Shown here one piece after another: positions 23,066 to 24,095 of a stretch of 64,000 nt of DNA. This DNA comes from Escherichia coli. Its GTDB lineage: Bacteria > Pseudomonadota > Gammaproteobacteria > Enterobacterales > Enterobacteriaceae. The stretch lies in NCBI RefSeq assembly GCF_001677475.2, contig NZ_CP015229.1. One strand, written 5' to 3'. The position numbers were made by a program, and so were the translations under genes. Positions within the stretch are counted from its first letter, which is position 1; every line of letters starts with the position of its first letter. Below the pieces are notes generated by a model. It was not told the origin of the DNA. It did not search any database and saw only the letters and a program-made list of their open reading frames with translations.

Positions 23066-24095
23066 ATGACAAAACCCATCCCTCCGGGGCCGGAGGAACT
23101 TTACCTCAGCCGCCAGAACCTGACGCAGCGCCAGTATGTGGTGGTGTGGCTGGAATACCTGACGGCACAGAACTACAGCGCGATCAGCGTAAGCGACTAT
23201 CGCGAACGGGTGTTACCGTTCGTGACATGGTGTGAGGAGCGCGGGCTGATGTACGCGCCGCAGGTCAGCCAGCCGCAGCTTGAAAGCTATCAGCGCCACC
23301 TTCACGGCTACCGTAAGGCGGACGGCCATCCGCTGGCGGTCAGCGGTCAGGTGGGCCGGATAAGCGCGATAAAAATCTTTTACCGCTGGCTGCTGAAGCG
23401 GCATGTGATCCTGTACAACCCCGCCGATCTGCTGGAACTGCCAAAGCCGGACAAACGGCTTCCGGCGCAGGTGTTCAGTAAGGGCGAGACGCGGCAGGTG
23501 TTACAGAGCCTTGATATCAACACGCCCGTTGGCCTGCGCAACCGGACAATCCTTGAGGTGCTGTGGAGTACCGGGATCAGGCGGATGGAGCTGGCCAGCC
23601 TGATGTTGTGGGATGTTGACACCGGGCGCGGTGTGGTTAACGTGCGGCAGGGTAAGGGGCGTAAGGATCGGGTGGTTCCGGTGGGCCATGTGGCGCTGGG
23701 ATGGCTGGCAAGACGTGCGACCACAGATGACGCGCCAGCGCGACAGTGGTCATCTGTTCGTGACGAAATACGGCAGCGGGATGAAACGCAACACGCTGAC
23801 GGCGATGGCAGGCACCGCGATCCGGGAAACGGCACGGATCGACAAACCGGGCGCGTGCCATATCTTCCGGCACTCGATGGCGACGCAGATGCTGGACAAT
23901 GGCGCAGACACGCGGCATATCCAGGCGATCCTCGGCCATGAGAAGCTGGAGACGACGCAGATCTACACGAAGGTGGCCATAAAGCCGTTGCAGAAGGTTC
24001 ATGCGCGGACGCACCCGGCAGAGAAGCGGCGAAGGGAAAAGCGCGTGCAGCAGCCGGACGAGGCCACCGTATCGCCGGACAGCCTGAAAAGTTAG
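23066..24095 (+). pseudogene. tyrosine recombinase/integrase (XerC/D-like) with a frameshift near 23720
   Basis: N-terminal part in frame of ORF 22937..23941 (MTKPIPPGPEELYLSRQNLTQRQYV… to …[11 protein letters not shown]); C-terminal catalytic part in ORF 23613..24095 (…[17 protein letters not shown]…[39 protein letters not shown]) in another frame; AGGA RBS before ATG 23066. Confidence 0.7.

What the first reader, a model, noticed from the sequence alone, without database searches (positions are those of the whole stretch)
23690..23760. Frameshift in the tyrosine recombinase occurs just before the catalytic region
The N-terminal frame reads …[17 protein letters not shown]… and then runs on as low-complexity sequence, while the true continuation …[18 protein letters not shown]…[10 protein letters not shown]…[15 protein letters not shown] lies in the +2 frame. 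A 1-nt insertion or 2-nt deletion near GGCAAGAC would explain it. If it is a sequencing error the island encodes an intact recombinase.
Basis: seen in the sequence. Interest (0 to 1): 0.35.

Follow-up and report, generated by a model that had tools for sequence, protein, structure and literature searches.

The report
Dead recombinase in an Rhs toxin island
The recombinase gene is really broken, by an inherited 11-base deletion and not by a sequencing error. That is ordinary gene decay, but the gene belongs to a widespread primase-recombinase module that may be the long-missing vehicle bringing new toxin tips to bacterial Rhs genes.

Summary

The cause is an 11-nt deletion relative to intact E. 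coli homologues, not a 1-2 nt indel. It removes an invariant Arg and splits the catalytic domain, leaving Arg and Lys upstream and His-x-x-Arg, His and Tyr downstream.

It is not a sequencing error. The exact frameshifted 291-aa product occurs on at least 20 public contigs, from 4 NCBI assemblies and many SRA runs. The neighbouring repressor and primase genes also carry a 2,189-bp deletion. This is a fixed pseudogene in a decayed element, which is ordinary.

The context is less ordinary. The gene belongs to a module of SymE(-), RstR-like repressor(-), DnaG-type primase(+) and recombinase(+), followed by a ~1-kb spacer with a conserved hairpin. This module is repeated between Rhs toxin-tip/immunity cassettes in at least ten genera of Enterobacterales.

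The module's right end is nucleotide-precise and normally abuts the Rhs core-end (DPxGL). Six junctions differ: four non-Rhs or unidentified, two within the rhs core. This suggests, without proving, an integrative element that delivers Rhs tips.

The parts
23066..23709 (+). Recombinase pseudogene, N-terminal part. It holds the SAM-like core-binding domain and the first part of the catalytic domain, with catalytic Arg (GIRRMEL) and Lys (QGKGRK).
23709..23710 (+). Junction of the 11-nt deletion. GCGGTATCTGA, present in intact homologues, is missing here. The loss covers the R-Y-L-K codons.
   Evidence: invariant R216
23710..24095 (+). Recombinase pseudogene, C-terminal part, in the frame shifted by one base. 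It holds HIFRH (His-x-x-Arg), LGHEK (His) and QIYTK (Tyr nucleophile). A separate in-frame 15-nt length difference lies near 24062 in the unconserved tail.
21782..22861 (+). C-terminal remnant of the module's DnaG-type primase. It matches residues 621-903 of the intact 910-aa protein at 98.6% identity. The zinc ribbon, Toprim domain and P-loop region are deleted.
21763..21764 (.). Junction of a 2,189-bp deletion, equivalent to L013 9481-11669. It removes the repressor's N-terminal 83 codons, the divergent promoter region and primase codons 1-614.
21617..21764 (-). Remnant (C-terminal 49 codons) of the RstR-like HTH repressor gene.
21213..21542 (-). SymE-family toxin gene, the constant leftmost gene of the module. 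It is overlapped on the + strand by an IsrA-type RNA match (21343-21471) and followed by a weak SymR match (21537-21611).
   Evidence: (PF08845)
20285..21168 (+). Current rhsC tip. It consists of the core-end (DPIGL...IDPLGL, from 20285), the variable C-terminal toxin domain (to 20737) and the putative immunity gene (20728-21168). In the proposed model this is the cargo delivered by the module.
24131..24166 (.). Hairpin A (GGGCAGACAACCGCC / GGCGGTTGACTGCCC). It is conserved, with compensating base changes, after the recombinase gene in other genera.
24260..24353 (.). Hairpin B, long type. The outer arms ACATAATG / CATTATGT are conserved in all genera examined. It contains two inverted dif-like sites (24255-24282 on the minus strand, 24329-24356 on the plus strand).
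24958..25005 (+). Conserved non-coding box at the right end of the module (…GTTAAAAAGTGTGACCTGCACCGGATCGTTCCGAT).
25006..25086 (+). Displaced 27-codon Rhs core-end stub (DPIGL...IDPLGL) that begins the orphan toxin cassette.
25060..26070 (.). Orphan cassette: toxin-tip ORF (25060-25515, +), putative immunity gene (25527-25790, +) and a second, shorter SymE copy (25837-26070, -).

Best explanation
The gene is a true pseudogene. An 11-bp deletion inside the catalytic domain of a XerC-like tyrosine recombinase (NCBIfam subfamily NF002331, not the chromosomal XerC) shifted the frame and removed four conserved residues. The allele is fixed in an E. coli lineage.

The gene sits in a decayed copy of a conserved module: SymE toxin, RstR-like repressor, DnaG-type primase, recombinase, then a spacer with a conserved hairpin and a terminal box. 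This copy lies between the current rhsC toxin tip and the previous, displaced tip. It has also lost its repressor and most of its primase.

Inferred, not shown: when intact, the module is a small integrative and probably self-replicating element. It carries an Rhs core-end, toxin tip and immunity gene as cargo. Its recombinase inserts it at the DPxGL-coding end of an rhs core. This puts the new tip in frame and pushes the old tip downstream as an orphan. In this window the element is a fossil and can no longer move itself.
For: Pseudogene (shown):
- One Pfam domain is split across two frames.
- An 11-nt gap is seen against four intact or near-intact E. coli copies.
- The deleted codons include R216, invariant in 13 diverse family members, and near-invariant Y217 and L218.
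- The exact frameshifted product is on at least 20 contigs from 4 NCBI assemblies and many SRA runs. Contig L003 is 100% identical to the window over 6,195 nt.
- Another E. coli copy is frameshifted at a different position, by a 1-nt deletion.
- Apart from the deletion, all catalytic residues are kept. Codon differences from the A20 gene are 38 synonymous and 17 non-synonymous, which indicates recent inactivation.
- The same module copy carries a 2,189-bp deletion.

Module (shown):
- The same gene order and orientation appear in E. coli, Salmonella, Citrobacter, Erwinia, Pectobacterium, Dickeya, Brenneria, Edaphovirga, Photorhabdus and Xenorhabdus. The module is tandemly repeated between Rhs tips.
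- Domains are HTH_3/RstR-like, zinc ribbon plus Toprim primase, and Phage_integrase.

Integration (inferred):
- The module's right end is nucleotide-precise.
- In 52 of 64 distinct occurrences it abuts an Rhs stub that starts at the same residue (1411).
- Six junctions differ: a phage terminase gene (L056), two unidentified flanks (L058, L063), internal rhs-core sequence (L071) and a longer core fragment (L074, L078). In L049 the box abuts the second DPxGL motif instead of the first.
- The same unit occurs at two sites in one Photorhabdus genome.
- A finished Lonsdalea assembly holds an 11,289-bp circular record made of two units.
Against: - No excision product, empty site or recombinase activity has been observed.
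- The recombinase-binding site is not identified. Two candidates exist, the box/stub boundary and hairpin B.
- Tandem arrays, and circles derived from them, can also arise by RecA-dependent recombination between the repeated stubs or SymE copies. The Lonsdalea circle could be an assembly artefact.
- In strain A34 the same rhsC tip occurs without any module, which needs a secondary deletion to explain.
- Some of the novel junctions lie next to IS elements or prophage DNA, so rearrangement by other agents is not excluded.
Confidence: 0.8

Rival explanations
1. The frameshift is a sequencing or assembly error, and the strain encodes an intact recombinase.
For: Single-window data cannot exclude an error by themselves. 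The rest of the gene is well preserved.
Against: - The lesion is 11 nt and does not lie in a homopolymer.
- The identical out-of-frame product is called on at least 20 contigs from independent assemblies and runs, and one contig type is present in 20 or more samples.
- L003 is 100% identical to the window over 6,195 nt, and L004 is 99.9% identical.
Confidence: 0.02
2. The split is functional. Either programmed ribosomal frameshifting or two separately made fragments reconstitute an active recombinase.
For: All six catalytic residues are still encoded, divided between the two frames.
Against: - There is no slippery heptamer at GGC TGG CAA GAC.
- Intact homologues are single-frame proteins in all genera examined.
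- Any read-through product would lack R216, Y217 and L218, which are invariant or nearly so.
- Other decayed copies are broken at different positions.
- The downstream piece has no evident start of its own. None of five candidate downstream products tested was called as a protein in public data.
Confidence: 0.02
3. The gene is a pseudogene, but the module is only a passenger or an unrelated selfish element lodged in Rhs arrays. In this view Rhs tips are exchanged solely by homologous recombination between core-end repeats, and the recombinase has another role, such as resolving multimers or moving only itself.
For: - RecA-type recombination between rhs core repeats is experimentally documented in Salmonella (Koskiniemi 2014, listed) and is the model of Jackson 2009.
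- The repeated stubs and SymE copies give ample homology.
- The dif-like hairpin could be a Xer-type multimer-resolution site.
Against: - The stubs after the module start at one fixed residue across genera, rather than at variable lengths.
- The module's right end is precise and also joins non-Rhs DNA.
- Module and cassette are strictly linked, in one orientation, across at least ten genera and even next to CdiA-type toxins.
Confidence: 0.25

Closest known systems
XerC/XerD chromosome-dimer resolvases of E. coli
   Same: Same fold and the same catalytic R-K-H-R-H-Y set. The intact homologue aligns with XerD over about 290 residues (E 5e-39). NCBI names it 'XerC'. A dif-like sequence lies 160 nt downstream.
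   Different: - It scores below the XerC and XerD equivalog cut-offs (222 and 223 bits against 335 and 330) and belongs to subfamily NF002331.
- It is multi-copy, with a median of 4 places per genome in the 55 E. coli genomes that have it.
- It is encoded inside a mobile-looking module in Rhs loci, not at the xerC locus.
CTXphi-type IMEX elements (RS2 region: rstR, rstA, rstB; attP made of two inverted dif-like sites)
   Same: - A divergently transcribed RstR-like repressor (78.9 bits against a cut-off of 80).
- It is followed by a replication gene and then an integration gene.
- Then comes a pair of inverted dif-like sites able to fold as a hairpin.
- Integrated copies form tandem arrays.
   Different: - It encodes its own tyrosine recombinase instead of using only host XerCD.
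- Its replication gene is a DnaG-type primase, not a rolling-circle initiator.
- It is found at rhs genes, not at dif.
- No phage structural genes are present.
Integrons (IntI plus attC hairpins and cassette arrays)
   Same: - A Xer-related tyrosine recombinase.
- Arrays of promoterless cassettes.
- An imperfect inverted repeat of variable length (58-99 nt), with conserved outer ends and extra bases on one strand, reminiscent of attC.
   Different: - The integron-integrase models score far below cut-off (120 against 265).
- Every unit carries its own recombinase, primase and repressor.
- The precise junction lies at the box/stub boundary about 650 nt from the hairpin.
Rhs 'C-terminal displacement' model (Jackson et al. 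2009) and Rhs-linked integrases in bee-gut bacteria (Steele et al. 2017)
   Same: The window shows exactly the architecture of that model: a full rhs gene with its current tip, followed by displaced tips that each carry a core-end fragment. Steele et al. noted integrase-like genes near Rhs loci and suggested a role in transfer.
   Different: [quoted passage not shown] Here a recombinase-primase module accompanies the cassettes in many genera.
Recombinase-associated acquired interbacterial defence clusters (rAID-1) of Bacteroidales
   Same: XerD-like tyrosine recombinases linked to arrays of orphan toxin-immunity genes. The relevant papers appear; I did not read them, and this comparison rests partly on my own knowledge.
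   Different: They occur in a different phylum and carry immunity-only arrays. They have no primase/SymE/repressor module and no fusion to an Rhs core.
P4-like and PICI-type satellites (integrase, primase, repressor)
   Same: A compact set of integrase, primase-type replication protein and Cro/CI-type repressor.
   Different: There are no packaging or helper-exploitation genes. The cargo is a toxin tip. No close relatives were found in 50,697 phage records; the best match is 28% identity over the primase domain only.

Membership tests
Tyrosine recombinase (Pfam PF00589 Phage_integrase) | Catalytic domain with Arg, Lys, His-x-x-Arg, His/Trp and the Tyr nucleophile | tested here: met
   All six residues are encoded, but they are split between two frames. 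They are invariant in 13 family members.
Tyrosine recombinase (Pfam PF00589 Phage_integrase) | Single continuous reading frame giving a complete domain | tested here: not met
   An 11-nt deletion at 23709|23710 breaks the frame. Profile positions 79-88 are missing.
NCBIfam NF002331 (PRK01287) 'XerC' subfamily | Whole-protein score above the curated cut-off (371 bits) | tested here: met
   The intact E. coli homologue scores 533 bits. The window gene is 92% identical to such genes at DNA level.
Chromosomal XerC / XerD (dimer resolution at dif) | Score above the equivalog cut-offs TIGR02224 / TIGR02225 | tested here: not met
   Scores are 221.6 bits against 335 and 222.9 bits against 330.
Chromosomal XerC / XerD (dimer resolution at dif) | Single-copy core gene present in all strains | tested here: not met
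   It is present in only 55 of 5,426 complete E. coli genomes, with a median of 4 copies, always in Rhs-type contexts.
Pseudogene (fixed, non-functional allele) | Disrupting lesion relative to intact homologues, loss of conserved residues, and the same allele in independent isolates | tested here: met
IMEX (elements exploiting host Xer, such as CTXphi) | dif-like attP site(s) | tested here: inconclusive
   Inverted dif-like sites are present. The window's minus-strand site matches 20 of 22 arm positions. Its 6-nt spacing results from a 4-nt deletion specific to this lineage. Use of these sites as attP is untested.
IMEX (elements exploiting host Xer, such as CTXphi) | No recombinase of its own, and integration at the chromosomal dif | tested here: not met
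   It encodes its own recombinase and lies at rhs loci.
Integron | IntI-type integrase (score above the TIGR02249 / NF011946 cut-off) | tested here: not met
   Scores are 119.6 bits against 265 and 65 bits against 435.
Integron | One platform (intI, attI, Pc) followed by cassettes that each end in an attC | tested here: not met
   Each unit has its own recombinase, primase and repressor.
Integrative mobile element with a site-specific recombinase (generic) | Defined ends, found at more than one kind of flank | tested here: met
   The right end is precise to the nucleotide, with the standard DPxGL stub flank plus six junctions that differ (seven flank types with L049). The left end coincides with the DPxGL codons of the rhs core.
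Integrative mobile element with a site-specific recombinase (generic) | Demonstrated excision/integration, with a circular form and an empty site | not testable with these tools
   The only hint is an 11,289-bp circular record of two units in Lonsdalea populi, which could be an assembly artefact.

The most novel reading that the evidence does not exclude
The broken gene is the integrase of a previously undescribed class of small integrative, primase-bearing elements. They carry polymorphic-toxin tips (Rhs core-end, toxin and immunity gene) and insert them site-specifically at the DPxGL-coding end of rhs genes. Related forms may do the same at CdiA-type toxin genes. This would be the missing mechanism for 'C-terminal displacement' and for the horizontal spread of toxin tips. 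The conserved hairpin of inverted dif-like sites would act as a folded-DNA site, for recombination or for replication priming.
Probability: 0.45. Interest if true: 0.8.

Novelty: new member of a known kind. Interest (0 to 1): 0.4.

Why it matters
The frameshift itself only shows that this copy is dead. The rhsC tip of this lineage can no longer be moved by its own recombinase.

The family it belongs to may matter more. How bacteria acquire new Rhs toxin tips has been an open question since the displacement model of 2009, which explicitly lacked an integrase.

A conserved recombinase-primase-repressor module sits between tips in many genera. Its end is precise and abuts the Rhs core-end. This makes the question directly testable in strains with intact copies.

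Tried and rejected
- **Sequencing error:** rejected, because the identical allele is in many independent assemblies.
- **Programmed frameshift or split enzyme:** rejected, from the sequence and from loss of invariant residues.
- **Known RNA family for the spacer hairpins:** Rfam gave none. The only hits were IsrA, SymR and Ssr1 over the SymE copies.
- **Fixed-spacing dif scan:** it hit the window and Erwinia but not other E. coli copies. This is explained by a 4-nt difference in the left half-site. The near-perfect dif match is therefore partly lineage-specific and is not used as a family feature.
- **Xer-type core site inside the 81-nt stub or the box:** I looked by eye and found only partial resemblance (TATGCGCC), so the result is inconclusive.
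- **Model with unit boundaries at hairpin B (CTX-like opening):** disfavoured, because arrays begin with a full rhs gene and end with stub-tip-immunity-SymE, and because the novel junctions lie at the box, not at the hairpin.
- **Phage collection:** no close relatives.
- **Literature:** eight searches found no description of the module. The library lacks most subscription journals.
- **Stub-like repeat in the Pseudomonas CdiA-linked units:** not found.

Full report
**1. The observation**

The window is an E. coli-type chromosome segment running kdp, rhsC, ybgA-phrB, gltA-sdh-suc. Its sucA is 99.1% identical to the best of 5,425 E. coli genomes.

At 23066 an ORF starts that reads as a tyrosine recombinase up to ...[10 protein letters not shown] and then runs out of frame to a stop at 23941. 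The frame one base over continues with [18 protein letters not shown]...[10 protein letters not shown]...[15 protein letters not shown] and stops at 24095.

Pfam matches the first piece to PF00589 positions 5-78 plus the SAM-like N-domain, and the second piece to positions 89-169.

**2. The lesion**

Fifty-five of 5,426 complete E. coli genomes carry homologues. Most are about 91-92% identical in DNA and are annotated 'site-specific tyrosine recombinase XerC'.

Alignment with the intact gene of strain A20 and three further copies shows two gaps in the window:
- A separate 15-nt in-frame length difference in the unconserved C-terminal tail.

The 11 nt encode most of R-Y-L-K. In an alignment of 13 family members from different genera, R216 is invariant and Y217 and L218 are nearly so.

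Alignment with E. coli XerD (E 5e-39) identifies the catalytic residues. Arg in TGIRRMEL and Lys in QGKGRK lie upstream of the break. His-x-x-Arg (HIFRH), His (LGHEK) and Tyr (IYTK) lie downstream. The break is therefore inside the catalytic domain, not before it.

**3. Not an error**

The exact 291-aa product of the first frame, including its out-of-frame tail, is in the public protein collection. It is encoded on at least 20 contigs, from four NCBI assemblies and many SRA-derived assemblies. One contig type is seen in 20 or more samples.

Contig NJSK01000053.1 is 100% identical to window 20245-26439, and a second contig is 99.9% identical. An 11-nt loss outside any homopolymer, shared by independent runs, is a real inherited allele.

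Apart from the deletion, the gene differs from the A20 gene at 38 synonymous and 17 non-synonymous codons and keeps every catalytic residue. Inactivation is therefore recent.

Another E. coli copy (CUWW11, first unit) is frameshifted by a different 1-nt deletion. These are independent decay events, not a programmed shift.

**4. The neighbourhood is decayed too**

In intact loci the recombinase gene is preceded by three genes:
- a SymE-family toxin gene on the minus strand;
- a 132-aa HTH_3 repressor gene on the minus strand, whose best NCBIfam match is the RstR family of phage CTX at 78.9 bits against a cut-off of 80;
- a 910-aa protein with a DnaG zinc ribbon, a Toprim domain and a P-loop hint on the plus strand.

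In the window a 2,189-bp deletion joins the repressor's last 49 codons to primase codon 615 or so. The remaining primase piece matches residues 621-903 at 98.6%. Restoring the recombinase frame would not restore the module.

**5. What the module is**

The same order and orientation recur wherever the recombinase family is found. The order is a full rhs gene, tip, immunity gene, SymE(-), HTH(-), primase(+), recombinase(+), a spacer of about 1 kb, a short Rhs core-end stub, the next tip, the next immunity gene, SymE(-), and so on.

It was seen in these loci:
- E. coli CUWW11, with two units and a period of 6,632 bp;
- Xenorhabdus nematophila, Erwinia pyrifoliae (at least four units) and Salmonella (the rhs array beside the saf fimbrial genes);
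- 70 further loci from Citrobacter, Dickeya, Edaphovirga, Pectobacterium, Brenneria, Photorhabdus and Xenorhabdus.

The recombinases are 55-75% identical across these genera. They belong to NCBIfam subfamily NF002331 (533 bits). They score below the cut-offs of true XerC, XerD and integron integrases.

Toxin-antitoxin pairs (RelB/ParE, DinJ/RelE) are inserted in some units, as expected of a selfish element.

**6. Conserved non-coding features**

Three features are conserved.

(a) Hairpin B lies 170-260 nt after the recombinase gene. It is an imperfect inverted repeat with outer arms cATTCA-ACATAATG ... CATTATGT-C, and it occurs in all genera in two size classes, 58-63 nt and 89-99 nt.
- In the short class, RNAalifold predicts 20 pairs, five of them kept through changes on both sides.
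- The arms resemble Xer sites. In the window the minus strand at 24255-24282 reads AGTGCGCATAA TCCGCA TTATGTTGAAT. This matches 20 of 22 arm positions of E. coli dif and is the only site within six mismatches in the 64 kb.
- By my own arithmetic, about 2e-5 such sites are expected by chance.
- The caveat is that the window and L003 lack 4 nt (AGGG) that are present in the otherwise near-identical L004 and in L001. The 6-nt spacing of that half-site is therefore lineage-specific. In the family, the left half carries 3-4 extra bases that would bulge out of a folded hairpin.

(b) Hairpin A (GGGCAGAC...GTCTGCCC) lies closer to the gene and also shows compensating base changes.

(c) A box of about 45 nt ends the spacer, for example TTAAAAAGTAYGAYSG...GGGATAGTCCCTAAG in Photorhabdus.

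**7. A precise end**

Directly after the box comes GAYCCNATHGG..., the codons for DPIGL. The stub always starts at RhsC residue 1411. This is not what variable-length homologous exchange would leave.

A profile of the box finds 64 distinct occurrences:
- 52 are followed by this stub.
- 6 lie at contig ends.
- 6 are joined to something else at the same nucleotide: a phage terminase gene (L056), two other sequences (L058, L063), internal rhs-core sequence (L071), and a longer rhs-core fragment (L074 and L078).

In L049, counted among the 52, the box abuts the second DPxGL motif of an rhs core rather than the first.

L056 and L058 carry the same unit, 100% identical, at two places in one genome.

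A finished Lonsdalea populi assembly contains an 11,289-bp circular record consisting of two units closed at a box|stub junction.

**8. Interpretation**

The shown facts fit an integrative element whose cargo is an Rhs core-end, toxin tip and immunity gene, and whose recombinase crosses over at the DPxGL-coding sequence. Insertion would fuse the incoming tip to the resident core and push the resident core-end and tip downstream. This gives the observed order and the fixed stub.

The primase and repressor suggest a replicating, regulated circular stage. SymE and other toxin-antitoxin genes suggest stabilisation. The hairpin of inverted dif-like sites resembles the folded attP of phage CTX or an integron attC. 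Its role, whether recombination, priming or multimer resolution, is unknown.

None of this has been tested. RecA-dependent recombination between stubs or SymE copies certainly also shapes these arrays. For example, strain A34 has the window's tip followed by a hybrid SymE and ybgA, with no module.

I give the element model about 0.45-0.55, and the pseudogene verdict above 0.9.

**9. Literature**

Jackson et al. [quoted passage not shown] Steele et al. 2017 noted integrase-like genes near Rhs loci of bee-gut bacteria and left their role open. A Proteus study noted a symE gene inside a CDI orphan region.

Eight full-text searches found no description of the SymE-repressor-primase-recombinase module. 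The searchable library omits most subscription journals, so prior description elsewhere cannot be excluded.

**10. Verdict**

The finding is real but ordinary. It is a recently inactivated, lineage-fixed recombinase pseudogene in a degraded element. Its value is as a pointer to the family of intact modules, which deserves experimental attention.

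Noticed in passing
window 24260-24353; compare L004 4028-4125 and L001 7287-7383: The window and contig L003 lack 4 nt (AGGG) in the left half of hairpin B. These 4 nt are present in the otherwise 99.9% identical contig L004 and in strain A20. This may be a second small lesion, in the element's candidate DNA site.
   Followed up: partly
window 21213-21542, 25837-26070, ~28412-28679, ~30885-31164: Four SymE-like copies lie in the rhsC region, one after each toxin/immunity cassette. Rfam matches IsrA (107.5 bits, above its gathering score of 51), a sub-threshold SymR, and partial Ssr1 over them.
   Followed up: partly
window 26099-26262 and ~31312-31330; L001 ~9000-9069: Orphan stubs that have no module upstream are still preceded by a degenerate copy of the terminal box (…AGTACGATCC…GTAGATTGCG…). 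This suggests that these cassettes descend from full units by internal deletion.
   Followed up: partly
window 26521-27657 and 28746-30518: A 378-aa ORF (26521-27657) of the size and position of ISEc1-type (ISAs1 family, H-repeat) transposase genes in related loci (inferred; this ORF was not searched), and a 1.46-kb rhs core fragment with its own tip, lie further down the array. These are classic Rhs-element components.
   Followed up: no
L091 (NZ_CP072857.1, Lonsdalea populi N-5-1, 11,289 bp circular): A record deposited as a plasmid consists only of two module units closed at a box|stub junction. One unit is intact and carries a DinJ/RelE pair. The other has a truncated primase and no recombinase. 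It is either a real extrachromosomal circle or an assembly artefact.
   Followed up: partly
L092 (P. aeruginosa plasmid pPA1609-475) and L093 (Salmonella IncF plasmid pCFSAN006171_1): Related repressor-primase-'XerC' modules (primase 55-60% identical) are tandemly repeated with a period of 8,179 bp. They follow a TpsA2/CdiA-type toxin gene and its immunity gene in one case, and lie near a ShlB/FhaC transporter gene in the other. The module family may therefore also serve contact-dependent inhibition toxins.
   Followed up: partly
L056 1993-2613 and 11400-12425 (Photorhabdus thracensis): A prophage large-terminase gene is interrupted by an IS (DDE_5 transposase) together with a complete unit. 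The unit's right end is at the usual nucleotide.
   Followed up: partly
L043, L046-L049, L055-L059, L062, L063, L065 (Photorhabdus): Many Photorhabdus recombinases of this family are about 470 aa long, with the N-terminal core-binding region (residues ~19-131) duplicated in tandem.
   Followed up: no
L021 (JAEWTL010000003.1, 'Bacillota bacterium' MAG, 3,109 bp): A contig binned as Bacillota carries a primase end and recombinase 99% identical to the E. coli module. This is almost certainly a mis-binned Enterobacterales contig.
   Followed up: no
window 22630-22935: The window has about 210 extra nt at the primase 3' end and the intergenic region, relative to strains S10 and CUWW11. The extra sequence is rich in GTCGG(C/T)-type short repeats (family D3).
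   Followed up: no
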